Shown one piece after another: positions 40,975 to 63,078 of a stretch of DNA of 64,000 nucleotides (position 1 is the stretch's first letter; every line of letters begins with the position of its first letter). The stretch is from sequence record ON286972; one strand, 5' to 3'. The notes below the pieces were generated by a model, which saw nothing but the letters and a program-made list of their open reading frames with translations, made no database searches and was not told where the DNA came from. The DNA is from Escherichia phage A4. Made by a program: the position numbers and the translations under genes.

Positions 40975-41166
40975 ATGTTGATTTATCAATGTGATAACAT
41001 TCGTGTTATACAGCATCCCTACTTACAAATCTTTGATGTGCAGCAGTATATGGAAGGTGATGACCCAAGAACCTATGGTCGTAAGTATGATTACTTCACT
41101 GTAAAGCAGTGTCGTAACATCAAAGAAGTACGACAATTAGTTCAAGAACTTCAAAATAAAGGTTGA
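40975..41166 (+). CDS. hypothetical protein (63 aa)
   Basis: Track ORF 40945..41166 trimmed to ATG 40975 after GAGGA. Confidence 0.45.
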   Translation: MLIYQCDNIRVIQHPYLQIFDVQQYMEGDDPRTYGRKYDYFTVKQCRNIKEVRQLVQELQNKG

Positions 41167-41193
41167 CTTCGGTCAGCCTTTTTTGTTATAATC
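41161..41193 (+). promoter_or_regulatory. terminator/promoter cassette
   Basis: GGTTGAC-TTCG-GTCAGCC hairpin, TTTTTT, TATAAT; the TGA stop of the upstream gene is inside the hairpin. Confidence 0.6.
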
Positions 41194-41221
41194 ATTTCAT
41201 CTACTACTGGGGATTTTAATT

Positions 41222-41662
41222 ATGTATGTATATCGTTTTGAACTTAAATTCAGTTATATTGAACCTAACTTAGATCCTGCAAAAACAGTAGGACCGTTCG
41301 CACGGTACTCTTCGCGATACAGTACTAAAAATGGATTTGAACGTTTGTGTATGACTACACCTTCGCAATTCCAACCTGAGCCAACTGAAGATGGGATATA
41401 TTCAATCAAACGTGGCTGGGTATTTGGTTGTCAGAGTTTGAATGATTTGTTTAAGTTCTTTACTATGGACTTGGGTAAATTACATCGTGCAGGGTTCGCT
41501 GTATCAGTATATGAAGTTCCTGATAACCATGTAGACATTGGACATAACCAAGTGCAGTACTATTGTGGTAGTGCAAAACTACTTCGTATTATGTCAGTAA
41601 AGGAAGCTAAAGAAGAATTTCGTGCTACAAGATTTAATAAGGAAGAGATGGCATATGAATAA
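41222..41662 (+). CDS. hypothetical protein (146 aa)
   Basis: ORF track. Confidence 0.55.
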   Translation: MYVYRFELKFSYIEPNLDPAKTVGPFARYSSRYSTKNGFERLCMTTPSQFQPEPTEDGIYSIKRGWVFGCQSLNDLFKFFTMDLGKLHRAGFAVSVYEVPDNHVDIGHNQVQYYCGSAKLLRIMSVKEAKEEFRATRFNKEEMAYE

Positions 41663-42011
41663 AACATCAACACGATTTGCAAAGTACTTGAGTTATGAAA
41701 TACCACAAGATCCGTATTTCGACCAACGTGACGATGAAGATTACATAAAGTTAACTCGTGAACTACGAAATAAGTTCCAACAGATTTTAAGTTCATACAC
41801 TAATACACATCCACATTTAAAGTACTTCATTAAGGCAGATATAGATTCAGATGATTCTGAACTATCATTCCTTGAATACACAGTTGAGTGTGTTGGGTAT
41901 GTACCTGATAATAGTGTAATTAATCACAACAAAATAAAGTTCGACTTGTACGTTATTTGTGTTATAATGAACTTAATTGCACAAATGAACAACTATTCAA
42001 TAGGGGATTAA
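41655..42011 (+). CDS. hypothetical protein (118 aa)
   Basis: Track ORF 41622..42011 trimmed to ATG 41655. Confidence 0.5.
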   Translation: MNKTSTRFAKYLSYEIPQDPYFDQRDDEDYIKLTRELRNKFQQILSSYTNTHPHLKYFIKADIDSDDSELSFLEYTVECVGYVPDNSVINHNKIKFDLYVICVIMNLIAQMNNYSIGD

Positions 42012-42275
42012 ATGAAACTGAAATTGAACTATCATGGTTTTCGTCTGCGTGATGATGTGGAGTTCCTTCGTCGCACACCAGGTGCTGAATTGTTTTTAAC
42101 TGAAATGGGTGTCCCATTTAAAGTCGAGCACATTGGTGACAATGACTGCCTGGTATATGATAATCAACCAGATATCAACGTTCCGTGGTATTCTGAACAT
42201 ATGTACATTGATATGGCGGCTCGCTACAACTGTACGTTTGAAATTACATCTAAAGGTATTGCTATTCAATTCTAA
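42012..42275 (+). CDS. hypothetical protein (87 aa)
   Basis: ORF track. Confidence 0.5.
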   Translation: MKLKLNYHGFRLRDDVEFLRRTPGAELFLTEMGVPFKVEHIGDNDCLVYDNQPDINVPWYSEHMYIDMAARYNCTFEITSKGIAIQF

Positions 42276-42296
42276 TAGTCTGATGGACACGAGTAA

Positions 42297-42521
42297 ATGA
42301 AATACATGCTGGTGGCATTAATGTTTGTGAGCACTATAGTACAGGCCAGAATCAAGTACTTTGTGAAGTGTACAAACGTTAGCGGTGGCTACACAGAGAC
42401 ATATCAGGGTAAGTCGGTTAAGATGGCAATACACAATGATAGAGGAACAGTGATTTTCCTTGTGAATGATATAATCATTTTGTACAAACCAGATGTACCA
42501 TGTGAAGTAAAAAGATATTAA
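42297..42521 (+). CDS. small secreted protein (signal peptide)
   Basis: ORF track; MKYMLVALMFVSTIVQA. Confidence 0.45.
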   Translation: MKYMLVALMFVSTIVQARIKYFVKCTNVSGGYTETYQGKSVKMAIHNDRGTVIFLVNDIIILYKPDVPCEVKRY

Positions 42522-42527
42522 ACTACG

Positions 42528-42559
42528 GGGTTGACATAAGTCAGCCCTTTTGTATAATG
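42528..42559 (+). promoter_or_regulatory. terminator/promoter cassette
   Basis: GGGTTGAC-ATAA-GTCAGCCC, TTTT, TATAAT; -10 ends only 8 nt before ATG 42567. Confidence 0.55.
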
Positions 42560-42566
42560 GTGACTT

Positions 42567-43145
42567 ATGAACCGTAAAGGTAAGTTTAAAGTATCAAAGA
42601 AGAATAAAAGTGGAAGGTTCAATGATATATGCTTAGGTTTTATCAAAGCACACAATAAACTTTCTGCCCTGAGTAGAAAGATAGTATCTAACAAGATTGA
42701 TATTAGATATATAAGTACTAACAATAGTACAGGGAAAGATGCACATCCAACTGAAAATATTATTTCAGTATCCTTCGTATACGATGGTCTGGACATTACG
42801 ATAGATGATTACAGACGATACGGTACTGGGTTTATACGTATCTATTGCAGAGATGCATCTGATAAGCCGGAACGTATTCGTATTATCGGTACATTGAGTG
42901 CTGGTATATTTGAGTGGGAGATTGTTCAACTTAAAACTATCGATGAGTACACCACAAGTTCTAATATTATTGAGTTGAATTGCAATGTGAAAGACCTCCC
43001 AAACTTGAGCGAAGAAGAATATTTTCAAGAAAGCTTGCTAACGCCAAATTTGGATGATATAATTAAACAATATAAGACGATGGTGTACTTCTTCAAATGT
43101 ATCAAACCTAAGACTTGTTTGATGAATATTGTCCGTGATCTATAA
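42567..43145 (+). CDS. FQ-motif paralog family protein
   Basis: ORF track; SEEEYFQESL. Confidence 0.55.
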   Translation: MNRKGKFKVSKKNKSGRFNDICLGFIKAHNKLSALSRKIVSNKIDIRYISTNNSTGKDAHPTENIISVSFVYDGLDITIDDYRRYGTGFIRIYCRDASDKPERIRIIGTLSAGIFEWEIVQLKTIDEYTTSSNIIELNCNVKDLPNLSEEEYFQESLLTPNLDDIIKQYKTMVYFFKCIKPKTCLMNIVRDL

Positions 43146-43156
43146 CAGGAAAAAAT

Positions 43157-43588
43157 ATGTGGGTTAACGTTAATAGTACTGAACTTAATGAAATTGATAT
43201 CTTTGCATTTGTTAATCTGGAAACTGATACCTTTGTTCGTGGACGTTTGTTCATGAGTTCTGCCTGTGTTCGCAGTATTGCAGTTATGGATGAACTCGGT
43301 CAGGTAATTGAGTGCCTACCATTACCTGCATGGGCATATAGCAGTACTGAAGAAGATGTAATGCAAAAGATCTTTGAAGGGATCAATAAGCTACCAGGTG
43401 CAGATGTGAAGAATAAGATATTCAACATTGAGAATAAGAACTACAGTGCAGATGTATTGCGTCCTTTAGTGGATTCAGTACTACAAGCTGCATTAGCTAA
43501 ACCTAAGTGCATTATTTTAAAGTACATTCCAGAACTTTCCCTAACTAAAGAGGATATGAAAGGATTTATATTCTCATCGGAGTTGTGA
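43157..43588 (+). CDS. hypothetical protein (143 aa)
   Basis: ORF track. Confidence 0.5.
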   Translation: MWVNVNSTELNEIDIFAFVNLETDTFVRGRLFMSSACVRSIAVMDELGQVIECLPLPAWAYSSTEEDVMQKIFEGINKLPGADVKNKIFNIENKNYSADVLRPLVDSVLQAALAKPKCIILKYIPELSLTKEDMKGFIFSSEL

Positions 43589-43812
43589 TGAAAAGGTATA
43601 AAATTGAATACCTACTTAAAGTAAGAGAGAAAAGTATTAGTAGTGAGAAATACACCAGTGAGATATTCGTCAGAGATGAGTATTACATTGGTGAAAATGA
43701 AGTTGAAGTACTGTTACAATGCATAGAAAATGAATTTCAAGATATGACACGTTATATGTCATTTGAGATATCGTGTGCAAAAGTTACATTCTTGAACAAT
43801 ACTTCATATTAA
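43585..43812 (+). CDS. hypothetical protein (75 aa)
   Basis: ORF track; ATGA overlap. Confidence 0.45.
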   Translation: MMKRYKIEYLLKVREKSISSEKYTSEIFVRDEYYIGENEVEVLLQCIENEFQDMTRYMSFEISCAKVTFLNNTSY

Positions 43813-43816
43813 AAAA

Positions 43817-43856
43817 GGGTTGACTTTTGTTGACCCTTTTTGCTATTCTATAAATA
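43817..43856 (+). promoter_or_regulatory. terminator hairpin with degenerate promoter region (TATAAATA box)
   Basis: GGGTTGAC-TTTT-GTTGACCC hairpin, T-tract, then CTATTCTATAAATATAG. Confidence 0.45.
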
Positions 43857-43902
43857 TAGACATAGAGAATATATAACATGAAATCTATGGAGAGAAATCA
43901 AA

Positions 43903-45441
43903 ATGCCAGGTAAATTCACTGACAAAAACGGCGGCAATATGGCTGGACACTCTGATAAATGGAGTGATGAGAATCGTCGCAAAAATAGTTTCCAAGCGGG
44001 GCAAGGTTCCCGTGGCTCTCGCAACCAAGGAACGGGAGAAGCTGGGAAAGCAAACACAGTTGCATCACAGGGTCTTGATACTTCAAACATGTCCCAGCAT
44101 GAAAAATTGAAGTACTTCAATAGTCTTGGTCTTTTAAATCCGCAGCAGAAGCAACAACTTGCTGCACTGGATAAAGCACAAGAACAACCTAAAGCAGCAC
44201 CAGAAGCACCTGCACAGCCTAAAGCGGCTAATCCGGTAAAAGAACTAAGTGATAAACTTGGGAAGATCTTTGCTAACAAACCACAACTAATTCAAGGTAT
44301 CGTAAAAGCACTTCAAGCGGTTCCTAAAGAACAACTCAAGGATAAAGCACAAGCTGTTCTTGATAGTATGAAAGGGAATACCAGTACTGAACCAACTGAA
44401 GTATTCAGTACTATCATGCGTGCACTTGAAGGTAAGCCACAGGCTGATGATGATATTGAGTTTGATGAACCTGCACAAGAAGTAGCAAATCTTGACTCAA
44501 TCGTTTCTACATTTGGAAAAATTGGTGCAGAAGATAAGACTAATGCACAACAAGTTAAGAATGTACAAGCTAAGTTACAAAATCGTCTTGAAGGTAAAGA
44601 TGAAAAGATTAAACTTGCAGCAGATGCGTTGAAGAAAGCATTAGAATCATATAAACCTGGTGAGAAATCTCGCTTCATTACTGCAATGAATGCAGTATTC
44701 GGTGCAATGAAGAAGTATGAAGCTGAACACGGTGAGAAAGTAACTCCTGATGGATATCTCCTTCGCAAAGATGAAGAAGGTGCTGTTGACCAGAAGGACG
44801 CTGAACCAGACTATGGTAATTTACCAGATACAGTTGATATGGATGGTTACATTCATCGTCCTGATATGCAAGAATTTGGTTCAGACAAAGAAGGTTTTGA
44901 ACATGCTATGGCTGTGTACAAAGCATTAGTCGATAATCCACAATATGCAAATAGTTTTGTAGATGAGTTTGATAGTGCATGGAACAACTACCAAGACAAA
45001 GGATATGATTTCCCAGCAGAAGCAGCATTCTTTGAACTAGGTAAACTTCTTGCTAAAAATGGTATTAATGTTGGTTCTAATGGTGAAGCAAACACTTCAG
45101 AAATGGACGCTGAATTGGCTAAAGATCGTGAAATGACTGATAAGTCAATTCATGAACTACAAAAGCTAATGATGTGGATTGCTGAAATTGGCAAGAAAGC
45201 TGGTGCAGATCCTAAGAGCATTAACAGCAATATTAGTTGGATTAAACATAAGGTTGATAACAATGCCCGTAAATTACAAAAGGCATGGACCGACCTAGTG
45301 AATGGTGCAGACGATGTTGATATCGATTCACCAGAAGCATACGAGTACGCATTGAACACACTTGATAACTCTTTCAAGGATTACGAAAATGGTAACGTAA
45401 CTGATTGGGAAAAGGATATCATGCATAAGTACGGTAAATGA
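43903..45441 (+). CDS. hypothetical Lys/Ala/Glu/Gln-rich protein (512 aa)
   Basis: ORF track; GGAGAG RBS; codon usage richer in GC than neighbours; low-complexity N-terminus. Confidence 0.6.
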   Translation: MPGKFTDKNGGNMAGHSDKWSDENRRKNSFQAGQGSRGSRNQGTGEAGKANTVASQGLDTSNMSQHEKLKYFNSLGLLNPQQKQQLAALDKAQEQPKAAPEAPAQPKAANPVKELSDKLGKIFANKPQLIQGIVKALQAVPKEQLKDKAQAVLDSMKGNTSTEPTEVFSTIMRALEGKPQADDDIEFDEPAQEVANLDSIVSTFGKIGAEDKTNAQQVKNVQAKLQNRLEGKDEKIKLAADALKKALESYKPGEKSRFITAMNAVFGAMKKYEAEHGEKVTPDGYLLRKDEEGAVDQKDAEPDYGNLPDTVDMDGYIHRPDMQEFGSDKEGFEHAMAVYKALVDNPQYANSFVDEFDSAWNNYQDKGYDFPAEAAFFELGKLLAKNGINVGSNGEANTSEMDAELAKDREMTDKSIHELQKLMMWIAEIGKKAGADPKSINSNISWIKHKVDNNARKLQKAWTDLVNGADDVDIDSPEAYEYALNTLDNSFKDYENGNVTDWEKDIMHKYGK

Positions 45442-45450
45442 TAAAAAAAG

Positions 45451-45484
45451 AGGTTGACTTCGGTCAGCCTTTTTTGCTATAATA
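45451..45484 (+). promoter_or_regulatory. terminator/promoter cassette
   Basis: AGGTTGAC-TTCG-GTCAGCCT, TTTTT, TATAAT. Confidence 0.6.
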
Positions 45485-45511
45485 CTCTCATAACCTAAAA
45501 GGAGAAACTCT

Positions 45512-45787
45512 ATGAACACATACGAACGTTTAGTTGGCTCAATGCGTTATGAAGAAATTTTAAGTGATATTGAAGAACTGAAAGACTCTAAAAGTTACAT
45601 CCACTTAGATGAACTTATCGTGAAGTATGGGGAGGTTGGTGCAAAAGAATTAATTTGCTTTATGGTTCATGTTCGAAATTTAAATTACTTTGATCTTTCA
45701 TCGAAGAACGGTGAACCGAATCTTTATTATCTATATTATTTGAAACATAAAGATGCATGTAATAAATTATTCTTAGAACTTTTATAA
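45512..45787 (+). CDS. hypothetical protein (91 aa)
   Basis: ORF track; AAGGAG RBS. Confidence 0.5.
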   Translation: MNTYERLVGSMRYEEILSDIEELKDSKSYIHLDELIVKYGEVGAKELICFMVHVRNLNYFDLSSKNGEPNLYYLYYLKHKDACNKLFLELL

Positions 45788-45800
45788 CTGGAGATATCTA

Positions 45801-46061
45801 ATGCAAAACCCTGAATTGAAAATGTTTACACAAATCCGTCTTGCTCGTGTTGAACATGACACTAACTATGTACTGAACGATGGTCCTCCACAACGCGTTG
45901 AAGTTGGTTATATTGACGTTGATAATTCACAATCTCTTCTGATTACCATTGGTTCTAACTCTTACAGTGTTGCTACACTGGAGAGTGTATTGTCCCTGGC
46001 ACAATCCGCAAGGATTGCCCGTAACGCTCTTATGAACTGTGATGAACCTGATAATGAATGA
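45801..46061 (+). CDS. hypothetical protein (86 aa)
   Basis: ORF track; GGAG RBS. Confidence 0.5.
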   Translation: MQNPELKMFTQIRLARVEHDTNYVLNDGPPQRVEVGYIDVDNSQSLLITIGSNSYSVATLESVLSLAQSARIARNALMNCDEPDNE

Positions 46062-46392
46062 TTATATGTATGAATTAAACCTGGTATCGTTTATCGTATC
46101 AGGACTAGGATGGATGTACTATATGCTTGGGTATATTTTATTATTCTTCCGATACAATACATTCTACAAACGCTATTGGGATGATGCACCAATTCACTTC
46201 TTCGCATTTGTATTCTTAACTATGGCAGTGGGTGAAGTACTGCTAACTGGTATCCAAAGTACTGGTGGAATGATGTGCACACTAACAACATTCTTTGTTG
46301 TTTTTGGGACTGTAGTTTGGTTTTTCGCGTGGGGACTCTTCTCTTTGATTATGAAACTTGAGAAACTCCGAGACAAATTACCAGAGCGTTGA
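46039..46392 (+). CDS. integral membrane protein
   Basis: ORF track; several hydrophobic helices; start uncertain. Confidence 0.45.
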   Translation: MMNLIMNDYMYELNLVSFIVSGLGWMYYMLGYILLFFRYNTFYKRYWDDAPIHFFAFVFLTMAVGEVLLTGIQSTGGMMCTLTTFFVVFGTVVWFFAWGLFSLIMKLEKLRDKLPER

Positions 46393-46402
46393 TGAAAAGT
46401 AT

Positions 46403-46430
46403 TTGACAAACTCAACTAGTACTGTATAAT
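46403..46430 (+). promoter_or_regulatory. sigma70-type promoter
   Basis: TTGACA-N16-TATAAT with tagtactg spacer. Confidence 0.55.
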
Positions 46431-46477
46431 GTTTATCAAGGGGATGAACTTCTCATCCCTACAATCGAGGAACTACC

Positions 46478-47029
46478 ATGATTACTTTTAAGAAAACTGC
46501 CAACCACATCCATGAAATTTACATTAACGGTCACAAAGCTGGCCTTCTTCGTTTACTCGCCCATCATCCTGATGTTACCGTATCTGATAATGAACCTAAA
46601 GATTGGCGTGTATTTTTCTTTGGAAAGTACAGTGATTTTCAAGTATCAAACCTGAAGAACATTCGTTCAGTATGCACGTTAACTGAAATTAAAGAAAAGT
46701 TAACCAAAGCATTGAAAACTAATCCAGATGGTGTTCTTCCACCTGATAACTTTGTAGAGAAAGGATATGCCTTAGCTCATTTCAAAGATGGTACTATTCA
46801 ATCTATCAGTACTGAATATGAATACCAATGGACTGAGTACTTCACTTATGGCTCCCGTAATACTTTGATGGCTTCACGTAGTAAATTGGAAGAAGTACTG
46901 ACTCGTATGAATGAACGCGAGCGTCAGTACTATGAACCAGAAATGTGGAGTTCAACTTACATTGACCGTATTGACTATGTTATGATGACTCCAATCTTTG
47001 ACACTGCTTACTATGATTCTTTGAAATAA
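46478..47029 (+). CDS. hypothetical protein (183 aa)
   Basis: ORF track; GAGGAA RBS. Confidence 0.55.
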   Translation: MITFKKTANHIHEIYINGHKAGLLRLLAHHPDVTVSDNEPKDWRVFFFGKYSDFQVSNLKNIRSVCTLTEIKEKLTKALKTNPDGVLPPDNFVEKGYALAHFKDGTIQSISTEYEYQWTEYFTYGSRNTLMASRSKLEEVLTRMNERERQYYEPEMWSSTYIDRIDYVMMTPIFDTAYYDSLK

Positions 47030-47040
47030 GGATAACTTAT

Positions 47041-47217
47041 ATGAAACTACGTACTCGCAATCGACTGATGGATGCCCTATATCATGAACAGTGTTCATTA
47101 AATGAAGTAAAGCGTCAGTTAATGTACACATATCAGTTACCCGCTCGTGTTGCAAAACAACGTGCTAACGAATTGCTGAAAGAAGCAATCGAGTACTGGG
47201 AATCTGATTCGTACTAA
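47041..47217 (+). CDS. small hypothetical protein (58 aa)
   Basis: Not in track; AAGGAT RBS; clean ATG to TAA frame. Confidence 0.4.
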   Translation: MKLRTRNRLMDALYHEQCSLNEVKRQLMYTYQLPARVAKQRANELLKEAIEYWESDSY

Positions 47218-47256
47218 TATTACGTGATATGTCACGTTAATTAAGTGAGGCGATAA

Positions 47257-47508
47257 ATGAAAATATTATTAGTTCTAATACTACTAATTGTTTTACCATT
47301 TACTTTAGTATCCCCTGAACTTGCATGGAATGTGTTTGTGTACTTAGTATGTACTATTGTAGTAAATGGTATCTTGTTCTTAGTTCTATTCATAAATGGA
47401 ATAGGACACGGTGGAGGATGGACCAGTACTGCTGATATTGTACATAAAACCACTATGTCTTTATTTGTAGTGTGGAATTTATTCTGGACTTGGTTTGTGT
47501 TCTTCTAA
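47257..47508 (+). CDS. small integral membrane protein (83 aa)
   Basis: ORF track; GAGG RBS. Confidence 0.45.
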   Translation: MKILLVLILLIVLPFTLVSPELAWNVFVYLVCTIVVNGILFLVLFINGIGHGGGWTSTADIVHKTTMSLFVVWNLFWTWFVFF

Positions 47509-47517
47509 TTAAAAAAT

Positions 47518-47889
47518 ATGAATATAGATTTGAAAGGTGCAACACGAACTGTCATACTCATTGGGGAATATGCTATCAAGATTCCAACCTTCAAAAGCTG
47601 GAAGTTATTCCTAACTGGAATGATAGCTAACCTCAATGAACGCTCATGGATGCAGTACTCCAAGCGTAGTGACAGTGGGATATGTCCTACTCTGTGGTCA
47701 TCGCGAACTGGCTTAATAACAGTACAGAAACGTTGTAAGCCAGTACAACATAGGGGTTTGTTTTGGGTGGAGTTGAGTGCATTAGCATTGAATTCAGAGT
47801 TGAGTACTGACTTCTTCTATTCAGATGCGAAGCCAGAAAACTTTGGATATTTGAATGGTAAGTTAGTTAAGCTTGATTATGGAGATTAA
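47518..47889 (+). CDS. minimal protein-kinase-like protein (123 aa)
   Basis: YAIKIP (beta3 Lys), DAKPENFGY (D-x-K-P-E-N catalytic loop), KLDYGD (DFG-like); truncated after DFG. Confidence 0.45.
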   Translation: MNIDLKGATRTVILIGEYAIKIPTFKSWKLFLTGMIANLNERSWMQYSKRSDSGICPTLWSSRTGLITVQKRCKPVQHRGLFWVELSALALNSELSTDFFYSDAKPENFGYLNGKLVKLDYGD

Positions 47890-47916
47890 TATGTACGCAT
47901 TGTATAATAAAGAAAA

Positions 47917-47950
47917 GGATTGACTTCAGTCAGCCCTTTTTTCTATAATC
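47917..47950 (+). promoter_or_regulatory. terminator/promoter cassette
   Basis: GGATTGAC-TTCA-GTCAGCCC, TTTTTT, TATAAT, then conserved CATTTCATC. Confidence 0.55.
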
Positions 47951-47977
47951 ATTTCATCGAAACGAGAGGATGAATAC

Positions 47978-48415
47978 ATGACACGCATTAACTTAGTACA
48001 TGTTAAAGAACTTGCTGACCAACATCTGATGGCTGAATATCGTGAACTTCCACGTGTGTTTGGTGCTGTACAAAAACATGTTCAAGCACGTAAGCGTGTA
48101 CGTGATTTCAAAATTAACAGTACTTATCTGTTAGGTTCAGGTCATGTAACATTCTTCTACGACAAGTTACTATACTTACAGAAGCGTCATATTGATATTG
48201 TTAACGAATGTTTGCGTCGTGGTATGAAGATTCAAAACACTGAAGTAAACGACATTAGCGGCTTCCCTGCTGAGTTTTGTAATGACTACGTACCATCGGA
48301 GTCCGAGATTAAAACATCACGCGAGCGTTTGATTGAGAAGCTTCAGATGAAGCCTAAGTGGTATAAGTTTACTGATGTTGAGCTACCTATATATTATGTT
48401 GATATGATACAATGA
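47978..48415 (+). CDS. denV: pyrimidine-dimer DNA glycosylase / endonuclease V
   Basis: Near full-length similarity to T4 endonuclease V as recalled: [30 protein letters not shown]...KRVRDFKI......[11 protein letters not shown]. Confidence 0.9.
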
Positions 48416-48639
48416 ATGATGAAGAATTCAAAAAATATGCGATTGCGAAGCTTGATTCATACAAGTCACGCGAAACGTATAAATTTAATCCTGATAAAAC
48501 AAAAGCATCTATAAGATGGATGATTAATTCACCCAAATATACATTTGACGAAAAATATTCATGGATAGTGCAATGTAGTGATTATGAGGATTTGGTATAT
48601 AATATTAAACTGTGTTGGTATGAATACAACAATAAATGA
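48412..48639 (+). CDS. hypothetical protein (75 aa)
   Basis: ORF track; ATGA overlap. Confidence 0.45.
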
Positions 48640-48645
48640 TATAAG

Positions 48646-48679
48646 GGGTTGACTTCGGTCAGCCCTTTTTGCTATAATC
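48646..48679 (+). promoter_or_regulatory. terminator/promoter cassette
   Basis: GGGTTGAC-TTCG-GTCAGCCC, TTTTT, TATAAT, CATTTCATC. Confidence 0.6.
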
Positions 48680-48704
48680 ATTTCATCAAATTAAGAGGTG
48701 ATAC

Positions 48705-48944
48705 ATGAAACTATCTTTTATACGTTTAGCAGAATTCTTCGGTACTGATATAATTACTTTACAACAAATTGCAGACAATACTTCATTAAGTACACAAGAA
48801 GTACTTGACTTAGATGTGATAGAGTGTGATAATACTTCTATCGATTATAAAGAAGGTCTTGTCGAAAAAGATAAGATTCAGGCTAAGATTAATGGTGCTG
48901 GACGGGTTCAGTACTGGAAAGGAGTTTTAAGTCATGCCAGCTAA
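48705..48944 (+). CDS. hypothetical protein (79 aa)
   Basis: ORF track; AGAGGTGA RBS. Confidence 0.45.
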   Translation: MKLSFIRLAEFFGTDIITLQQIADNTSLSTQEVLDLDVIECDNTSIDYKEGLVEKDKIQAKINGAGRVQYWKGVLSHAS

Positions 48945-50631
48945 ATTAACCCCTAAACAAGCAAAAGAAAAATTCAACAAAAAAGTATTAGAACATAACG
49001 TTCCAATTGAAGCTGATTATAGTAAGTATGAAAATGCCAAATTAAAAAACATCCAAGTAGTTTGCAATGATGTATTAAAACACAAATCAGGCATATCACA
49101 AATATATCTTATGGATCACGCAAACCTCACACACCCATCCAAAAAATTTGGTTGTCCTGAATGTGAAGACTGGTATAATGGTCATGCTAAAAGTTTAGAT
49201 ATTTTAATTGTTAGGGAAAGAATTAATTCTTGGATTAGTACTTATGGCGGGATTATTGATACGGTTAGTGGTGAAGTTGAAGTTTATAAAAATAATTCAT
49301 CCAAAATACCATATATTTGTAAAAATGGAACTAAAAAAACGCTTACTATTTCTTCACTTGGCGATGAAATCGGTTGTAATTGTTCTAAATGTAAAGCTGA
49401 ATTAATATCAGAAATCGAAGATAACAATGAATATACATCCATGACTACTGTTGATGATTGTGTTACAATTTCCCATTTTAAATTTGGGGATGATGTTGCA
49501 TTCTCGTGGATTTCACCATTGGAAATGAAAAAACATGGTTACTGTCTTGCCGAAAAAATGAAAGAAAAAGCATTGTCGGTTGGTAAAAATATTATTGGAT
49601 ATGCAATATCATCTCTTAGTGAATGGAAAAATGAAAAAACTCCTGTAATAACCGAACACGAAGGAGTATTATATCGTATTTCCAAAGCATCATATTTGAT
49701 CAATAATAATATAGTACATAGACCACATTATACAAAAAATAATTTTTTATATTATTTTTACAAATGTTCACCTAACAATCAACTTATTACACCAATCCTA
49801 ATACCTGATGATATTGGTACAAAAAAGAAAATTAAAGTATGTTATAAATCATGTGGGTGTGAATATGATATATCTGTGGACGTTATAATGAACAGAAATT
49901 TAAAAACTTGTGGAAACTGTAAAAATATAGATACTAATAAATTTATAGAACAGTGCTTGGAGTTCACTTCAAGTGGAGATTATATCTATGATAGAGTAAA
50001 CTATATAAATCAAAGTACACCTGTAACTATAGTTCATAAAATTTACGGCGAATTCAAAAGTACACCACAAAATCACTTAATACATTTAAAAAACGGTTTG
50101 AAATATGATACAGCTAACTTTAAAATAAAAAATTTAACTCAATTTAAAATTAAAGCAAATGAAGTTCATAATAACTTATATAATTATGATAAAGTTGATT
50201 ATGTAAATTCTTCAACGAAAGTATTAATAACTCATCCAGTATATGGAGACTTTTGGCAAACTCCAGCAAGTCACCTTGGTGGGTGTGGTCATCCACTTGC
50301 GGCTGGTCATTCTCAGCAATATGCATATATTCATAATATTTTGGATGGTGTTTTATCTGTAGCATTGAAATATGGGATTGAAAAGCAGAAAGGTAAGAGG
50401 GTGATGCAGCAAAATAAAAAATCCATGTTTCAAGTTCAATCTCTGTATACTTATTTTTTTCCATCTGTATACGAATGTAAGCAAGCTGAAAAAGAATGTA
50501 AGAAACTATTTGGTAAAGGTGTTTTAACTAAACAAGAAATGCCAGACGGGTATACTGAAACAACTACACCAAACAACATAGATAAAATTATTGCCATCTA
50601 TGAAAAATGGGGTGGGGTGAAACAAAACTAA
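48934..50631 (+). CDS. Cys-rich protein with three internal repeats (565 aa)
   Basis: ORF track; CPECEDW, CNCSKC, CGCEYD, CGNCKN pairs; repeat Y.YD.V.Y.N.ST.V.I.H..YG.F..TP..HL three times. Confidence 0.6.
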   Translation: MPAKLTPKQAKEKFNKKVLEHNVPIEADYSKYENAKLKNIQVVCNDVLKHKSGISQIYLMDHANLTHPSKKFGCPECEDWYNGHAKSLDILIVRERINSWISTYGGIIDTVSGEVEVYKNNSSKIPYICKNGTKKTLTISSLGDEIGCNCSKCKAELISEIEDNNEYTSMTTVDDCVTISHFKFGDDVAFSWISPLEMKKHGYCLAEKMKEKALSVGKNIIGYAISSLSEWKNEKTPVITEHEGVLYRISKASYLINNNIVHRPHYTKNNFLYYFYKCSPNNQLITPILIPDDIGTKKKIKVCYKSCGCEYDISVDVIMNRNLKTCGNCKNIDTNKFIEQCLEFTSSGDYIYDRVNYINQSTPVTIVHKIYGEFKSTPQNHLIHLKNGLKYDTANFKIKNLTQFKIKANEVHNNLYNYDKVDYVNSSTKVLITHPVYGDFWQTPASHLGGCGHPLAAGHSQQYAYIHNILDGVLSVALKYGIEKQKGKRVMQQNKKSMFQVQSLYTYFFPSVYECKQAEKECKKLFGKGVLTKQEMPDGYTETTTPNNIDKIIAIYEKWGGVKQN

Positions 50632-50637
50632 ACAAAA

Positions 50638-50671
50638 GGGTTGACTTCGGTCAGCCCTTTTTGCTATAATT
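50638..50671 (+). promoter_or_regulatory. terminator/promoter cassette
   Basis: GGGTTGAC-TTCG-GTCAGCCC, TTTTT, TATAAT, TATTTCATC. Confidence 0.6.
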
Positions 50672-50698
50672 ATTTCATCAACTGATGAGGACAACGAA

Positions 50699-51469
50699 AT
50701 GACCAGAGAAGCACGCAGCATTCAAATTCAGAAAAACTTCAACTCCATGATGGTTGCTCTTGAGTGTTTGCTCGATGATAGCAGTACTGTAAAAAGTATG
50801 GTTGTCAGCGGTGCTCCTGGTGTTGGTAAGACTTACACCCTCTCTAAACGCCTCCAGAAAGCACATGACGCGGCAGAATGGAACGTAGCTACCATCAGTG
50901 GTAAAATGACCACTCTGGCTCTGTACGAAGTTCTGTACAAGAATCGTCATAGCACCAACGTGTTAGTACTGGATGATATGGACAGCATCTTTGATTCAGA
51001 AGACGGTATGAACCTGCTCAAAGCAGTACTGGATAGTGGCAAGCGTACTGTTTCTTATATGACTAGCTCGAAGTATCTGAGCAGCAACGGTATCCCTAAC
51101 AGCTTTGATTTTAATGGTCGCATCGTATTCATTACTAACAAAGATTTAGCACTGAATGCTAAAGCTAAAACTAAAATGTCTGCTCACTATGCTGCTCTTA
51201 TGTCTCGCTCTGTATACGTTGACTTACAGATCCAGACCAAAAGCGATATCATGATTCACATTGAGAACGTGATGAACCAGACCAACATTCTGGAATCTAA
51301 GGGTATTAACAGTAATGGTAGTAAAGCAATCCTGAACTGGATGTTGAAGCACGAAGATTCACTTCGTTCACCTTCACTGCGTATGCCACTGTTGATTTCG
51401 GCAGTATATAACAACAACCCATACGATTGGGAAGAGCAATGTGAAAACTTGTTCCTGGAGAAAAATTAA
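50699..51469 (+). CDS. P-loop ATPase (AAA-like)
   Basis: Walker A GAPGVGKT, Walker B VLVLDDMD; GC-richer codon usage than neighbours. Confidence 0.7.
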   Translation: MTREARSIQIQKNFNSMMVALECLLDDSSTVKSMVVSGAPGVGKTYTLSKRLQKAHDAAEWNVATISGKMTTLALYEVLYKNRHSTNVLVLDDMDSIFDSEDGMNLLKAVLDSGKRTVSYMTSSKYLSSNGIPNSFDFNGRIVFITNKDLALNAKAKTKMSAHYAALMSRSVYVDLQIQTKSDIMIHIENVMNQTNILESKGINSNGSKAILNWMLKHEDSLRSPSLRMPLLISAVYNNNPYDWEEQCENLFLEKN

Positions 51470-54715: not shown

Positions 54716-54745
54716 AAAAAAGCCCACATTAAGTGGGCTTTTTGT
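54716..54745. terminator. bidirectional intrinsic terminator between convergent gene blocks
   Basis: AGCCCAC-ATTAA-GTGGGCT hairpin flanked by AAAAA and TTTTGTT. Confidence 0.6.
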
Positions 54746-56769
54746 TATTTGTGTTTTATGTGTAAAGTGTCTAATATTGTATTGAACAATGATTTAGCAG
54801 AAATCATGATTACTTGATCAAAATCTTTAGTATAAGAAATATTAGCAGTACTGGAAGAATCTTTCACCTCATCCGGTAATGCATCAAACTCTTCTTTTTC
54901 CATAATCTTTTCAAGTTCTTCACGAGAAATGGCTTTTACGTTTTCAATAGTCCTTAGTTGTATATTATAATCTTTATAATACGAAACTAAGTTCGTTGCG
55001 TATGAACCATCTTTAGATGCTGTTCCAGTAAAATCATAACATCCTGTATCAGTACTAACCCAATCGATTTTCCCTGAACTACCACTATATACACCTTTGT
55101 TGAACTTAATGTTAACAACATCACCAATAGTTTTCAATATACCACCTTTACATTCATTAAATGCGTTTAATTGATAACTTGTAGTCATATAGAATTTCGG
55201 TTCTAATGTAACAGTATCACCTACAGTTGCTTTCATATCAGAAACACTTAAGAACAATTCATTAAATCCTTTTGAATAAGTCTTGGTAATTGTTGTTCCA
55301 TCCCTGTTAGTTACTGTGTATTCTAAGTCCAATTCACAAATACTATTCAATGATAAGTAAGGGATATCAAATTTATCAGTACTAGCATCATAAGGACATC
55401 TTGAGGATGGTAGTATACCAGTAGGGTTTGGTACGTATTGAACTTTTGTTAACTCATACCCGCTTGCATTCGCTGGTGTAACTGTAATAGACGGTGTAGA
55501 TATTCCTTTCATTCCACAGAAGTATATGTTATCTGGAAAATCATTTATTACGAAGTCAGTGACAGGAATATCATAAGTATCTTTATCAGTCCAATTAAGA
55601 ACAACATTAGAACTGGTTGGATCAACAATATGTTCACTAGAACCACAGAAATATACTGATTTGGTATTAGTAATCATTAGTAATGTTTTGGATGATGAGT
55701 TCAATTCAAGAACATCTTTCACTTCAAGACCAGATGGTAATGTCAATGGTAACTTCGTAAATGATGTTAAATCTTGTTCATCTTTAACACCACTAGTCCC
55801 CGCCGGAAACTTACCTGAACCATAGAAAACACCTTTATTCGTCATGAAATACATGAACGGGGTTGATGTTCCTTTGTCAAATAGTTGAATGTCATCACAT
55901 GTTAAACCATCAGGTAAATCCACTTTAGATGGAGTTCTATAAACACCAGGCTTAATACCACCTTCACCATTACTTACATCACCTAGTACATATAAATCTT
56001 TACCTAGTTTCAAGAACATTGATTTATTTTTAGCACACAAGAATGTATCATATGATTTATCATCAATTGGTAGCTTGGTATATTCGGTGTATGTAGGCAT
56101 TGAATCATCAATCCACGAACTATCACCACTAATGTAAATGTGATTGTTTCTGTCAATATAATATGAATACACATCAGTACTGTTCATATATAAAGCATTT
56201 AGTGCATTTGTTTTCACTAAGTGATTGAACTTAAGAACTTGTTTTCCATCGTACTTATGGGAGTTGACACCAATATCACCATTTAGGCTACTACCAATTG
56301 AATATATATGACCACGTGGTAATAGAACTTGAACACCACTTTTGGTTAAATTATATTTGGAGTGCAAGAGATCGTTATATACAACTCTAACTTTCTTAAA
56401 GATATCAGTACATTCAATCCACGATTTAGATGGTGTACCATCCATTCCTATTATTGCCGGATCACCATAATAATAAGCTTTATTTTCATATGATATTTTA
56501 AAAGATGATTTACCATCTTTTGTATTAGCACTGAAGTACACATCTTTACTATCTTTAATTGGATAAGTACTATTCTCTACAAAAGTATTATATGAGATAT
56601 CGTTGTTAGCACTATTAAGAACAAAAGAAGTAGATGTACTATTGGACTTATAGACTGCTACGGAAGATGTATCACTGAAATCAATTTTAGTGAACGTATC
56701 TTTGTATGTTTCGTTTAATAATCCTACATAAAAAACATCAGTGCCATCCATCAGTAACGAATATAGCAT
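54745..56769 (-). CDS. RCC1-like repeat protein, possibly the C-terminal part of a frameshifted gene continuing from 56738..57682
   Basis: ORF track; no RBS before its ATG; frame opens 29 nt upstream of the stop of the preceding minus-strand ORF. Confidence 0.55.
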   Translation of the reverse strand: MLYSLLMDGTDVFYVGLLNETYKDTFTKIDFSDTSSVAVYKSNSTSTSFVLNSANNDISYNTFVENSTYPIKDSKDVYFSANTKDGKSSFKISYENKAYYYGDPAIIGMDGTPSKSWIECTDIFKKVRVVYNDLLHSKYNLTKSGVQVLLPRGHIYSIGSSLNGDIGVNSHKYDGKQVLKFNHLVKTNALNALYMNSTDVYSYYIDRNNHIYISGDSSWIDDSMPTYTEYTKLPIDDKSYDTFLCAKNKSMFLKLGKDLYVLGDVSNGEGGIKPGVYRTPSKVDLPDGLTCDDIQLFDKGTSTPFMYFMTNKGVFYGSGKFPAGTSGVKDEQDLTSFTKLPLTLPSGLEVKDVLELNSSSKTLLMITNTKSVYFCGSSEHIVDPTSSNVVLNWTDKDTYDIPVTDFVINDFPDNIYFCGMKGISTPSITVTPANASGYELTKVQYVPNPTGILPSSRCPYDASTDKFDIPYLSLNSICELDLEYTVTNRDGTTITKTYSKGFNELFLSVSDMKATVGDTVTLEPKFYMTTSYQLNAFNECKGGILKTIGDVVNIKFNKGVYSGSSGKIDWVSTDTGCYDFTGTASKDGSYATNLVSYYKDYNIQLRTIENVKAISREELEKIMEKEEFDALPDEVKDSSSTANISYTKDFDQVIMISAKSLFNTILDTLHIKHK

Positions 56770-57682: not shown

Positions 57683-57901
57683 GTTTATATCCTCATAAAT
57701 TGATACCAATTCTAATGTATTTACCCACTTAAAGTACAAAAAATGATCAATTAAATGGGGAATCTTTAACAAATGAATTCATGATGTACTTGATGAATTG
57801 CCCATACCAACGGATTCCTCAGTCCCAGCATACCACATGGTATTATCGAACTTTTTATCATTGTAGTATCATAACCACACCAAACATCATCAACATTAGT
57901 A

Positions 57902-59254: not shown

Positions 59255-59318
59255 ATATCCTCCTTTATTCATTATATTATATTTAATCAAAAAAGAAAAG
59301 CCAGTACAGAGTACTGGC
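59255..59318 (-). promoter_or_regulatory. repeated intergenic cassette: terminator hairpin, TATAAT box, AGGAGG RBS
   Basis: Minus-strand read: GCCAGTACTCTGTACTGGC, T-tract, GATTAAATATAATATAATGAATAAAGGAGG, ATG; near-identical at four sites. Confidence 0.5.
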
Positions 59319-59329
59319 ATTTAAAATAA

Positions 59330-60505: not shown

Positions 60506-60569
60506 AATTCCTCCTTTATTCATTATACTATATTTAATCAAAAAAGAAATGCCAGCATCAAGTACTGGC
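60506..60569 (-). promoter_or_regulatory. repeated intergenic cassette (terminator, TATAAT, RBS)
   Basis: Hairpin GCCAGTACTTGATGCTGGC, T-tract, TATAGTATAATGAATAAAGGAGG. Confidence 0.5.
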
Positions 60570-60576
60570 ATTATTG

Positions 60577-61767: not shown

Positions 61768-61832
61768 ATTTCCCTCCTTTATTCATTATACTATATTTAA
61801 TCAAAAAAGAAAAGCCAGTATCAAGTACTGGC
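61768..61832 (-). promoter_or_regulatory. repeated intergenic cassette (terminator, TATAAT, RBS)
   Basis: Hairpin GCCAGTACTTGATACTGGC, T-tract, TATAGTATAATGAATAAAGGAGGG. Confidence 0.5.
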
Positions 61833-61838
61833 CTATAT

Positions 61839-63072: not shown

Positions 63073-63078
63073 ATTGTG

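What the first reader, a model, noticed from the sequence alone, without database searches (positions are those of the whole stretch)
43903..51469. Codon-usage outlier genes within the AT-rich background
ORFs 43903..45441 and 50699..51469 (and the small 8548..8718 ORF) use visibly more GC-rich, CTG/CGT/GGT/AAC-biased codons than neighbouring genes. This fits either very high expression adapted to a Gram-negative-like host codon optimum or recent horizontal acquisition. The 43903 gene is also preceded by a TATAAATA box rather than a clean TATAAT.
Basis: seen in the sequence. Interest (0 to 1): 0.4.

Follow-up and report, generated by a model that had tools for sequence, protein, structure and literature searches.

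The report
Host-codon-tuned early phage ATPase gene
Of the three genes flagged in this jumbo enterobacterial phage, only a small AAA+ ATPase gene behind a strong early promoter really uses host-preferred codons, and this looks like heavy early expression rather than recent gene transfer; the large flagged gene is an ordinary late virion-protein gene behind a T4-style late promoter.

Summary
The window comes from a RaK2/121Q-like jumbo phage (Asteriusvirus relatives, 34% GC).

**50699..51469** is a genuine, extreme codon outlier. GC3 is 0.47 against 0.29 expected (z +7.0). E. coli CAI is 0.44 against 0.22 expected (z +12.6). It ranks 1st of 121 ORFs. It encodes a stand-alone AAA+ ATPase of the T4 NrdC.10 family and sits directly behind a terminator-plus-consensus sigma-70 promoter cassette.
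- The bias goes to E. coli optimal codons (CTG, AAC, ACC/ACT, GGT), not to G/C in general. The gene avoids codons served by the phage's own tRNAs.
- Orthologs in seven related phages (45-98% protein identity) keep both the bias and the promoter.
- No bacterial donor was found.
- This points to translational selection on a strongly expressed early gene, not recent transfer.

**43903..45441** is not a codon outlier. GC3 is 0.27 (z +0.3) and CTG is 1 of 34 Leu codons. Its extra G+C is at first codon positions, from an Ala/Gly/Asp/Glu-rich protein. It is a virion protein gene. Its TATAAATA box is the only copy in 64 kb (about 11.6 expected) and is a T4-type late promoter.

**8548..8718** is too short to call and falls within the distribution.

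Temporal-class codon adaptation is known from T4, so interest is modest.

The parts
50634..50661 (+). Intrinsic-terminator hairpin (12-bp stem, UUCG loop, followed by a U run) that ends the upstream HNH-endonuclease transcript. The -35 hexamer lies inside its 5' arm.
   Evidence: RNA fold -17.6 kcal/mol, z -4.9, 0 of 200 shuffles fold as well; sequence.
50641..50670 (+). Sigma-70-type promoter: TTGACT, 18 nt, TATAAT. One of six copies of the cassette GGGTTGACTTCGGTCAGCCCTTTTTGCTATAAT.
   Evidence: Cassette found 6 times against 0 expected. TTGAC-N-TATAAT found 18 times against 0.71 expected, all on the + strand. The same cassette precedes the orthologs in 121Q, slurp01, UE-S1 and RaK2, with variants in 7t3, Hallingskeid and fHe-Yen9-03.
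50687..50690 (+). Shine-Dalgarno GAGG, 8 nt before the ATG.
   Evidence: Read directly from the sequence; conserved in 121Q, slurp01 and UE-S1.
50699..51469 (+). The true codon outlier. A 256-aa stand-alone AAA+ ATPase of the T4 NrdC.10 family, with Walker A GAPGVGKT (residues 38-45) and Walker B VLVLDD (88-93).
   Evidence: Codon statistics. PHROG 1250 E 1e-103. Pfam AAA 23.3 bits against a cutoff of 21.2. tblastn to T4-type phages 40% identity, E 3e-44. RaK2 annotation 'nrdC.10'. AlphaFold2 pLDDT 93 with a generic AAA+ fold.
43812..43841 (+). Terminator hairpin of a degenerate copy of the same cassette. TTGACT is retained, but the -10 has decayed to TATTCT.
   Evidence: Fold -16.1 kcal/mol, z -6.2; cassette match with 2 mismatches.
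43849..43856 (+). TATAAATA, a T4-type late promoter -10 element.
   Evidence: The only copy on either strand in 64 kb, against 11.55 +/- 3.53 expected. CTATAAATATAGACATAGAG is identical upstream of the 121Q and slurp01 orthologs. In 121Q there are 17 copies against about 66 expected, and 11 lie within 60 nt upstream of gene starts, including the major capsid, scaffold and baseplate hub genes.
43889..43894 (+). Shine-Dalgarno GGAGAG, 8 nt before the ATG.
   Evidence: Sequence; conserved in the alignment.
43903..45441 (+). Late gene for a 512-aa acidic, Lys-rich virion protein with low-complexity stretches (ortholog of 121Q gp201 and phAPEC6 gp035c). Not a GC3 outlier.
   Evidence: PHROG 20398 'virion structural protein', E 2e-201. 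121Q annotation. phAPEC6 gp035c was detected in virions with 8 unique peptides (PMC7247149; link to the window gene via hit H68). Codon statistics. 76-78% protein identity to 121Q and slurp01.
8548..8718 (+).
   Evidence: z +1.4 for GC3 and +2.1 for CAI over 55 codons; no family match.
16019..19088 (+). Phage tRNA cluster: Ser-UGA, Gly-UCC, Ser-GCU, Met/Ile-CAU, Asn-GUU, Thr-UGU. It is context for the finding, because the outlier gene avoids the codons served by four of these tRNAs.
   Evidence: ARAGORN and Rfam. GGA/GGG, ACA/ACG, TCA/TCG and ATA make up 6 of 52 codons in the outlier gene against 39% pooled, p = 1.3e-5.

Best explanation
The finding merges two unrelated things.

(1) 50699..51469 is an early gene. 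Host sigma-70 RNA polymerase transcribes it from a near-consensus promoter that sits just after (and partly inside) the previous transcript's terminator. It encodes a stand-alone AAA+ ATPase of the T4 NrdC.10 family, whose biochemical role is unknown. Its codons have been driven by translational selection towards those read by abundant enterobacterial tRNAs (CTG, AAC, ATC, ACC/ACT, GGT, CGT, GCT). They have been driven away from codons that depend on rare host tRNAs or on the phage's own tRNAs (ATA, CTA, ACA, GGA/GGG, AGA). As a result the protein can be made fast and in quantity in the first minutes of infection, before phage tRNAs accumulate. Shown here: the bias, its direction, the promoter and SD site, and their conservation. 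Inferred: high early expression and the selective cause.

(2) 43903..45441 is a late virion-protein gene expressed from a T4-type TATAAATA late promoter. These phages encode a gp55-like late sigma factor. The gene looks G+C-rich only because the protein is rich in Ala, Gly, Asp and Glu. Its synonymous usage is typical of the phage, and like other late genes it almost lacks CTG.
For: - Outlier size: z +7.0 for GC3 and +12.6 for CAI, rank 1 of 121. The 121Q ortholog gp223 ranks 4th of 579 ORFs genome-wide for CAI z, level with the major capsid protein.
- Direction of the shift: optimal G/C-ending codons rise from 13.5% to 27.6%. Non-optimal A/T-ending codons fall from 51.5% to 30.5%. Optimal T-ending codons are retained. 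GCC, CCG, CCC and ACG are 0, and GCG, GTC and GGC are 1 each. So this is not a general G+C shift.
- Avoidance of phage-tRNA codons: 6 of 52 against 39% pooled, p = 1.3e-5.
- Promoter, terminator and SD site.
- Conservation: CAI z of 5 to 12 against local background in 121Q, slurp01, UE-S1 (58% aa identity), 7t3, Hallingskeid, RaK2 and fHe-Yen9-03, each with a sigma-70-type promoter, and the terminator-promoter cassette (exact or variant) in all but fHe-Yen9-03. At identical amino-acid sites the same codon is used only 44-60% of the time.
- T4-type nrdC.10 also has its own early-type promoter and ranks 3rd of 81 for CAI z.
- Purifying selection: 40 synonymous differences against 4 amino-acid differences from 121Q.
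- No donor: no E. coli nucleotide match. The nearest proteins that carry a source name or lie on a long contig are jumbo phages; most other hits are unnamed short metagenome contigs. Synteny upstream of the RCC1-like gene array is conserved.
- For 43903: GC1 0.574 with normal GC3; a unique, conserved TATAAATA; the 121Q TATAAATA map; a gp55-like sigma in 121Q, PHROG 234 E 8e-18; the same late motif was predicted for this phage group in PMC5259590; virion mass-spectrometry detection of the homolog.
Against: - No expression data exist for this phage or for this gene in any relative that I could find. High early expression is inferred from the promoter and the codons alone.
- An Akashi-type test (optimal codons enriched at conserved residues) points the right way in all six lineages (Mantel-Haenszel odds ratio 1.0-2.5) but is not significant in any.
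- The bias is weaker in RaK2 and fHe-Yen9-03 (z about 5, GC3 not raised), so the strength of selection varies between lineages.
- Other genes behind consensus promoters in the window are only slightly raised in CAI (p = 0.04), so a strong promoter alone does not predict the bias.
- CAI weights were recalled from memory.
- The window's own late sigma gene is not in the 64 kb, so it is inferred from relatives.
Confidence: 0.7

Rival explanations
1. Recent horizontal acquisition of 50699..51469 from a G+C-richer donor (the host or another replicon), with the foreign codon usage not yet ameliorated.
For: The composition is atypical. A mobile HNH endonuclease gene lies immediately upstream. Two very different alleles of the gene (58% aa identity) circulate among otherwise roughly 90%-identical Asteriusvirus genomes, so the locus does get exchanged between phages.
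Against: The gene is at the same syntenic position in every RaK2-like genome examined. The family occurs in 1309 phage records. There is no nucleotide match in 5,426 E. coli genomes, and the best protein hits that can be placed are jumbo-phage sequences. The bias is present in lineages only 45-58% identical in protein, which inheritance from a single recent transfer cannot explain. The bias is specific to optimal codons, with GCC, CCG and ACG absent, unlike an average enterobacterial gene.
Confidence: 0.04
2. Selection acts on the nucleotide sequence or the mRNA rather than on decoding. For example, raised G+C might protect the early transcript from AU-specific RNases or a phage RegB-like nuclease, evade H-NS silencing of AT-rich DNA, or remove target sites of the neighbouring homing endonuclease.
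For: GC3 is raised along the whole gene (0.38-0.58 in every 50-codon window). Non-optimal G/C-ending codons also rise somewhat, from 10.7% to 15.9%. An HNH endonuclease gene is adjacent.
Against: Most of the shift goes to optimal codons, and optimal T-ending codons (GGT 9/10, GCT 9/17, ACT 7/14) are kept or increased instead of being replaced by G/C-ending synonyms. RaK2 and fHe-Yen9-03 orthologs have raised CAI without raised GC3. UE-S1 has no endonuclease upstream yet shows the same bias. No conserved antisense ORF or Rfam RNA overlaps the gene.
Confidence: 0.1
3. The codon bias works as a translational timer rather than simply for high yield. CTG-rich early genes are translated only while host tRNA-Leu(CAG) is intact, and they fall silent when the phage remodels the tRNA pool. 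This is compatible with the best explanation and extends it.
For: CTG is 13/27 in the outlier gene, 10/27 in 121Q gp223, 17/41 in gp563, and 40-80% in several small sigma-70-promoter genes. In 20 late structural genes of 121Q it is 14/1042 (p = 5e-18), and in the window's virion-class genes 6/255 (p = 8e-6). The most abundant late proteins use CTA instead (major capsid protein 25/30). Recalled and not verified here: T-even infection cleaves host tRNA-Leu1.
Against: There is no evidence that RaK2-like phages alter host tRNA-Leu. CTG enrichment is weak in the 7t3, RaK2 and fHe-Yen9-03 orthologs (4/28, 6/26, 2/29). Plain early-versus-late adaptation to different tRNA pools explains the same counts.
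Confidence: 0.15
4. Chance or an annotation artefact: a wrong reading frame, or small-sample noise.
For: This does apply to the 55-codon ORF 8548..8718, whose values are within the distribution.
Against: For 50699, none of 2000 resamples comes close (z 7 and 12.6). The frame is confirmed by family matches, by a confident structure model, and by a 10:1 synonymous to non-synonymous ratio.
Confidence: 0.01

Closest known systems
T4 NrdC.10 (PHROG 1250), a conserved early ORF of T4-like phages predicted to be an AAA ATPase (PMC1524935)
   Same: About 40% identity over residues 9-215. Same Walker A and B motifs. It stands alone behind its own terminator and early-type promoter, and it has above-average E. 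coli CAI in a T4-type genome (z +4.6, rank 3 of 81). Function is unknown in both.
   Different: The window protein lacks the roughly 70-residue N-terminal extension of T4 NrdC.10; the PHROG profile matches only from position 77. It is not next to nrdC. Its codon bias is far stronger (z 12.6 against 4.6) and includes a large GC3 and CTG shift that T4 lacks.
Temporal-class codon usage in phage T4: early genes fit the host tRNA pool, late genes fit phage tRNAs (Cowe & Sharp 1991; Kunisawa 1992; recalled, not checked here)
   Same: Early genes with sigma-70 promoters lean towards host-optimal codons. Late virion genes use codons served by phage tRNAs or a remodelled pool. The phage carries tRNAs for GGA, ACA, UCA and AUA-type codons.
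   Different: Here one gene carries an exceptionally concentrated version of the early signature. The late genes' strong CTA preference is not something I can tie to a known T4 pattern.
T4 late promoters (TATAAATA, gp55/gp33/gp45-dependent) and the ATAAATA late motif predicted in RaK2-like phages CBB and GAP32 (PMC5259590)
   Same: Identical octamer, 35-57 nt upstream of structural-gene start codons, depleted elsewhere in the genome; a gp55-like sigma is present in relatives.
   Different: No gp33 or gp45 homologs were found in the group, according to PMC5259590. Here the box sits in a decayed copy of the early terminator-promoter cassette, which suggests an early promoter was converted to a late one.
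AAA+ initiator and clamp-loader clade (Orc1/Cdc6, Hda/DnaA, RFC, RuvB)
   Same: These are the best structural and weak profile matches: Foldseek E 3e-6 to 1e-4 with TM about 0.5, and TIGR02928 and Hda hits far below their cutoffs.
   Different: Sequence identity is 11-17%. There are no DNA-binding or winged-helix domains; the protein is only the ATPase core plus lid. It is not a member of any of these families by their curated thresholds.

Membership tests
T4 NrdC.10 family (PHROG 1250) | Significant full-length sequence similarity to T4-type NrdC.10 | tested here: met
   PHROG 1250 E 1.1e-103. tblastn against T4-type phages gives 40% identity over 81% of the query, E 3e-44, with features annotated nrdC.10 in Acj9 and PEi20. 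RaK2 ortholog is annotated nrdC.10.
T4 NrdC.10 family (PHROG 1250) | N-terminal extension of about 70 aa, as in the 322-aa T4-type protein | tested here: not met
   The profile matches positions 77-326 of 327 only. The window protein is 256 aa against 322 aa in the T4-type phage. This is a shorter architectural variant.
AAA+ ATPase superfamily | Walker A (GxxGxGK[ST]), Walker B (hhhhDD), and an alpha/beta core followed by a helical lid | tested here: met
   GAPGVGKT at 38-45 and VLVLDD at 88-93. G38, G41, G43, K44, D92, D93, N147 and R170 are invariant across 45 homologs. Pfam AAA scores 23.3 bits against a cutoff of 21.2. AlphaFold2 pLDDT 93 with top fold matches all AAA+ proteins.
AAA+ ATPase superfamily | ATP hydrolysis and oligomeric ring assembly | not testable with these tools
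   Needs biochemistry.
Recently transferred (alien) gene | Atypical composition relative to the genome | tested here: met
Recently transferred (alien) gene | Patchy presence or absence from close relatives, non-syntenic | tested here: not met
   Present and syntenic in 121Q, slurp01, UE-S1, RaK2, 7t3, fHe-Yen9-03 and Hallingskeid.
Recently transferred (alien) gene | Close homolog in a plausible donor with matching composition | tested here: not met
   No match in E. coli genomes. The nearest proteins that can be placed are from jumbo phages; the rest are unnamed metagenome contigs.
Gene under translational selection for high expression | Excess of host-optimal codons beyond what composition predicts | tested here: met
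   CAI z +12.6. The shift is specific to optimal codons, and rare codons ATA, CTA, ACA, GGA and GGG all have zero counts.
Gene under translational selection for high expression | Bias maintained in diverged orthologs | tested here: met
   CAI z of 5-12 in seven phages at 45-98% aa identity.
Gene under translational selection for high expression | Optimal codons enriched at conserved residues (Akashi test) | tested here: inconclusive
   Mantel-Haenszel odds ratio 1.0-2.5 in six lineages, none significant.
Gene under translational selection for high expression | Measured high mRNA or protein level | not testable with these tools
   No transcriptome or proteome data found for this gene. The only literature hit for NrdC.10 is PMC1524935.
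T4-type late promoter | TATAAATA placed a few tens of nt upstream of a late or structural gene | tested here: met
   43849..43856, 47 nt before the ATG of a virion-protein gene. Conserved in orthologs.
T4-type late promoter | Motif avoided elsewhere and enriched before structural genes | tested here: met
   1 copy against 11.55 expected in the window. In 121Q there are 17 copies against about 66 expected; 11 of the 17 lie within 60 nt upstream of starts, and 8 of those 11 genes are structural or morphogenetic (with annotations).
T4-type late promoter | gp55-like late sigma factor encoded by the phage | tested here: inconclusive
   121Q gp591 matches PHROG 234 'late sigma transcription factor', E 8e-18. 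The homolog is outside this 64-kb window, so it is inferred for this phage. gp33 and gp45 were reported absent from the group (PMC5259590).
T4-type late promoter | Late transcript initiating just downstream of the box | not testable with these tools
   Needs 5'-end mapping.

The most novel reading that the evidence does not exclude
Leucine codon choice works as a built-in expression timer in RaK2-like jumbo phages. Immediate-early genes such as 50699..51469 are written in CTG, which is read by the host's major tRNA-Leu(CAG). Late virion genes almost ban CTG and use CTA instead. If the phage inactivates or outcompetes tRNA-Leu(CAG) after takeover, as T-even phages are reported to do, then host mRNAs and the phage's own early mRNAs would be switched off together at the level of translation, with no repressor needed.
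Probability: 0.15. Interest if true: 0.6.

Novelty: new member of a known kind. Interest (0 to 1): 0.3.

Why it matters
Only one of the three genes is a codon outlier, it is not a recent import, and the two large genes belong to opposite temporal classes.
- Practically, it marks an uncharacterised AAA+ ATPase (NrdC.10 family, present in more than 1300 phage genomes including T4) as probably one of the most heavily translated early proteins of RaK2-like jumbo phages. Its codon adaptation is level with the major capsid protein. That makes it a sensible target for functional work on host takeover.
- The CTG-versus-CTA split between early and late genes gives a cheap sequence-only predictor of temporal class in these poorly annotated 350-kb genomes.
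- The same split hints at remodelling of the tRNA pool during infection, which can be tested.

Tried and rejected
- **Paralogy:** the outlier has no paralog in the window or in 121Q. The other top-CAI ATPase, 121Q gp563, is unrelated.
- **Function from structure:** the PDB sequence search gave nothing below E 0.1. Foldseek found only generic AAA+ folds with TM about 0.5. NCBIfam and PADLOC gave only sub-threshold P-loop matches. No specific function could be assigned.
- **Overlapping features:** antisense open frames are not conserved between divergent alleles, and Rfam finds only the tRNAs.
- **Akashi test:** the direction is consistent but not significant.
- **Promoter strength as the sole explanation:** genes just downstream of promoters are only weakly raised in CAI (p = 0.04) and not raised in GC3.
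- **Ortholog collection:** the IMG/VR scan returned only 121Q and RaK2 again, so I gathered orthologs from GenBank phage records instead.
- **Literature:** searches for NrdC.10 function and for T4 tRNA-Leu cleavage found nothing usable in the open-access library. The tRNA-Leu point therefore rests on memory.
- **Homing-endonuclease explanation:** rejected, because UE-S1 has the bias without the endonuclease.

Full report
**What the window is.** Megablast of 43000..52000 hits Escherichia jumbo phages of the genus Asteriusvirus (slurp01 92%, 121Q 87%, PBECO4 and others) and, more distantly, RaK2-like Klebsiella, Salmonella and Erwinia phages. Gene order matches 121Q genes of about 81 to 241. The window has 34.4% G+C. 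It carries a long run of small + strand genes, six tRNA genes, a sigma-70-family sigma gene, and an array of RCC1-like genes on the - strand.

**Checking the observation.** I called 121 non-overlapping ORFs. For each one I resampled synonymous codons from the rest of the window while keeping the protein sequence fixed.
- 50699..51469 is far outside everything else. GC3 is 0.471 against 0.287 expected (z +7.0; next best 3.2). E. coli CAI is 0.436 against 0.216 expected (z +12.6; next best 6.7).
- 43903..45441 has GC3 of 0.272 against 0.266 expected (z +0.3) and ranks 53rd. Its overall G+C of 0.398 comes from first codon positions (0.574 against a mean of 0.436). The protein is 39% Ala+Gly+Asp+Glu+Val against 29% window-wide.
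CAI is moderately raised (z +3.6, rank 8).
- The 55-codon ORF 8548..8718 lies inside the distribution (z +1.4 and +2.1).
GC3 and the codon counts do not depend on them.

**Genome-wide control.** The refutation test asked for a genome-wide distribution, so I fetched the whole 121Q genome and repeated the analysis on 579 ORFs.
- The ortholog gp223 ranks 4th for CAI z (+10.1) and 4th for GC3 z.
- That puts it level with the major capsid protein gp603 (z +11.3) and ahead of the tail sheath (z +7.4).
- The gp201 ortholog of 43903 ranks 35th for CAI and 373rd for GC3.

**Nature of the bias in 50699..51469.**
- Enriched: CTG 13/27 (background 0.09), AAC 17/22, ACC 7 and ACT 7 of 14, GGT 9/10, AGC 10/29.
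- Absent: ACA, ATA, CTA, GGA and GGG, all with zero counts.
- G/C-ending codons that are not optimal in E. coli are absent or single: GCC, CCG, CCC and ACG are 0; GCG, GTC and GGC are 1 each.
- Optimal T-ending codons are kept.
- This is the signature of selection for host-optimal codons laid over an AT-rich mutational background. It is not a generic G+C shift and it does not look like an average E. coli gene.
- The gene also shows the lowest use in the window (tied) of codons served by four of the phage's tRNAs, Gly-UCC, Thr-UGU, Ser-UGA and the CAU tRNA (ATA only if it is a lysidine-type tRNA-Ile, which was not checked): 6/52 against 39%, p = 1.3e-5.

**What the gene is.**
- The product is 256 aa with Walker A GAPGVGKT and Walker B VLVLDD.
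- Family evidence: Pfam AAA just above threshold and PHROG 1250 at E 1e-103. RaK2 annotates its ortholog as nrdC.10. tblastn finds 1309 phage records, including T4-type phages at 40% identity.
- NrdC.10 has been noted only as a conserved T4-like ORF with an AAA motif (PMC1524935).
- An AlphaFold2 model built from 45 homologs is confident (pLDDT 93). It matches only generic AAA+ cores plus lids (ORC/Cdc6, RuvB, RFC, Bcs1; TM about 0.5, 11-17% identity).
- NCBIfam and PADLOC give sub-threshold P-loop hits only.
- The biochemical role remains unknown. The protein is shorter than T4 NrdC.10 by an N-terminal segment of about 70 aa.

**Regulatory context.**
- Directly upstream lies AAAAGGGTTGACTTCGGTCAGCCCTTTTTGCTATAAT. 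This is a 12-bp hairpin with a UUCG loop and a U run (-17.6 kcal/mol, z -4.9). Its 5' arm carries TTGACT, followed 18 nt later by TATAAT, and then GAGG 8 nt before the ATG.
- The cassette occurs six times between 41160 and 50670, against 0 expected.
- TTGAC-N-TATAAT occurs 18 times in the window against 0.71 expected, always on the + strand.
- These are host sigma-70 (early) promoters, as predicted for the early regions of the related phage CBB (PMC5259590).

**Transfer or selection?**
- The gene sits at the same position, upstream of the RCC1-like array, in 121Q, slurp01, UE-S1, RaK2, Salmonella phage 7t3, Yersinia phage fHe-Yen9-03 and Erwinia phage Hallingskeid.
- Against each local background the ortholog's CAI z is 11.5, 11.7, 11.9, 5.3, 10.1, 5.1 and 11.6 respectively. 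Each is preceded by a sigma-70-type promoter, and all but fHe-Yen9-03 carry the same terminator-promoter cassette or a variant of it.
- Protein identity to the window gene falls to 45-58%. At identical residues the same codon is used only 44-60% of the time, so the shared bias is not simply inherited sequence.
- Against 121Q there are 40 synonymous and 4 amino-acid differences.
- A T4-type nrdC.10 also has its own terminator and early-type promoter and ranks 3rd of 81 neighbouring genes for CAI z.
- No nucleotide match exists in 5,426 complete E. coli genomes. The closest proteins that carry a source name or lie on a long contig are jumbo phages; most other hits are unnamed short metagenome contigs.
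- Recent acquisition is therefore rejected. Long-term translational selection on a strongly expressed early gene is the best reading.
- One caveat on locus history. Two alleles only 58% identical circulate among Asteriusvirus genomes whose flanks are about 90% identical, and a variable HNH endonuclease gene lies upstream. So phage-to-phage allele exchange does occur here. Both alleles, however, carry the bias.

**The 43903 gene.**
- It matches PHROG 20398 'virion structural protein' (E 2e-201).
- It is the ortholog of 121Q gp201 and of phAPEC6 gp035c. The latter was found in virions with 8 unique peptides (PMC7247149; link to the window gene).
- It evolves quickly: 76-78% protein identity to 121Q and slurp01, against 98% for the ATPase.
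- Its TATAAATA is the only copy on either strand of the window, against 11.55 +/- 3.53 expected. The surrounding CTATAAATATAGACATAGAG is identical in 121Q and slurp01.
- In 121Q the octamer occurs 17 times against about 66 expected. Eleven copies lie within 60 nt upstream of gene starts, including the major capsid, scaffold, two baseplate-hub genes, three virion-protein genes and endonuclease VII.
- 121Q encodes a gp55-like late sigma (PHROG 234, E 8e-18).
- The box is therefore a T4-type late promoter, already predicted for this phage group.
- Here it sits in a decayed copy of the early cassette: the hairpin and TTGACT are kept and the -10 has become TATTCT. This suggests that an early promoter was converted to late control.

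**An extra pattern.** Leucine codons separate the temporal classes.
- CTG is 13/27 in the outlier, 10/27 in gp223 and 17/41 in gp563, an unrelated AAA ATPase with tandem sigma-70 promoters. It is 40-80% in several small genes at 138-155 kb of 121Q.
- In 20 late structural genes of 121Q, CTG is 14/1042 (p = 5e-18). In the window's virion-class genes it is 6/255 (p = 8e-6).
- The most abundant late proteins use CTA, E. coli's rarest Leu codon: major capsid protein 25/30, sheath 35/64.
- I recall, but could not verify in the library, that T-even infection cleaves host tRNA-Leu1(CAG).
- This motivates the timer hypothesis given as the novel case. It remains speculative.

**Verdict.** There is one real, strong, conserved host-adapted early gene and one ordinary late gene. 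The phenomenon, codon usage that follows temporal class in tRNA-bearing phages, is known. The specific gene and the size of its bias are new details.

Noticed in passing
window 4647..6545 (+): A C-5 cytosine DNA methyltransferase gene is interrupted by an intein with Hint and LAGLIDADG homing-endonuclease domains (632 aa). The 121Q ortholog gp91 is only 861 nt and has no intein.
   Followed up: partly
window 41160..50670 (+); copies at 41160, 43817, 45451, 47917, 48646, 50638: A compact terminator-promoter cassette, GGGTTGACTTCGGTCAGCCCTTTTTGCTATAAT, occurs six times. The -35 hexamer lies inside the terminator stem and the -10 follows the U run. This turns each downstream gene into its own early transcription unit.
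   Followed up: yes
window 16553, 16962, 34813, 46403 (+): A second early-promoter subclass shares TTGAC(T/A)...CAGTACTGTATAAT. Two identical copies lie 409 nt apart, at 16553 and 16962, and the second sits just before tRNA-Gly.
   Followed up: no
window 48934..50631 (+): An HNH/homing-type endonuclease gene (PHROG 681 and 559) has one of the lowest GC3 values in the window (0.19, z -4.1). It lies directly upstream of the outlier gene. It differs in length in 121Q (gp221, 487 aa) and is absent from UE-S1.
   Followed up: partly
window 50699..51469 against L004 6050..6823 (UE-S1): Two alleles of the ATPase gene only 58% identical in protein (68% in DNA) circulate within Asteriusvirus, while the flanking genes are about 90% identical. 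The divergent allele is further from the window gene than the RaK2 ortholog is (70%). This indicates allele replacement between phages.
   Followed up: partly
121Q (L008-L014), e.g. major capsid gene 335645..336820; window virion-class genes 25626..26783 and 54745..63170 (-): Late structural genes almost lack CTG, and the most abundant ones strongly prefer CTA, E. coli's rarest Leu codon (major capsid protein 25/30). No phage tRNA-Leu(UAG) was seen. This is unexplained.
   Followed up: partly
window 16019..19088 (+): The tRNA cluster has Ser-UGA, Gly-UCC, Ser-GCU, Met/Ile-CAU, Asn-GUU and Thr-UGU, but not the tRNA-Leu(UAA) that 121Q annotates next to its tRNA-Ser(UGA).
   Followed up: no
window 54745..63972 (-): An array of RCC1-like repeat protein genes (homologs are detected in phAPEC6 virions) has the lowest GC3 and E. 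coli CAI in the window (z down to -5.1 and -4.1).
   Followed up: partly
L013 24327..25652 (121Q gp563; outside the window): An unrelated 441-aa AAA ATPase has the highest E. coli CAI in the whole 121Q genome (0.46, z +14.8). It is preceded by two tandem near-consensus sigma-70 promoters in a 316-nt intergenic region.
   Followed up: partly
window 31937..32899 (+): A sigma-70-family sigma factor gene (regions 2 and 3; PHROG 351) lies in the early region. It is probably a middle-class sigma, distinct from the gp55-like late sigma found elsewhere in relatives.
   Followed up: no
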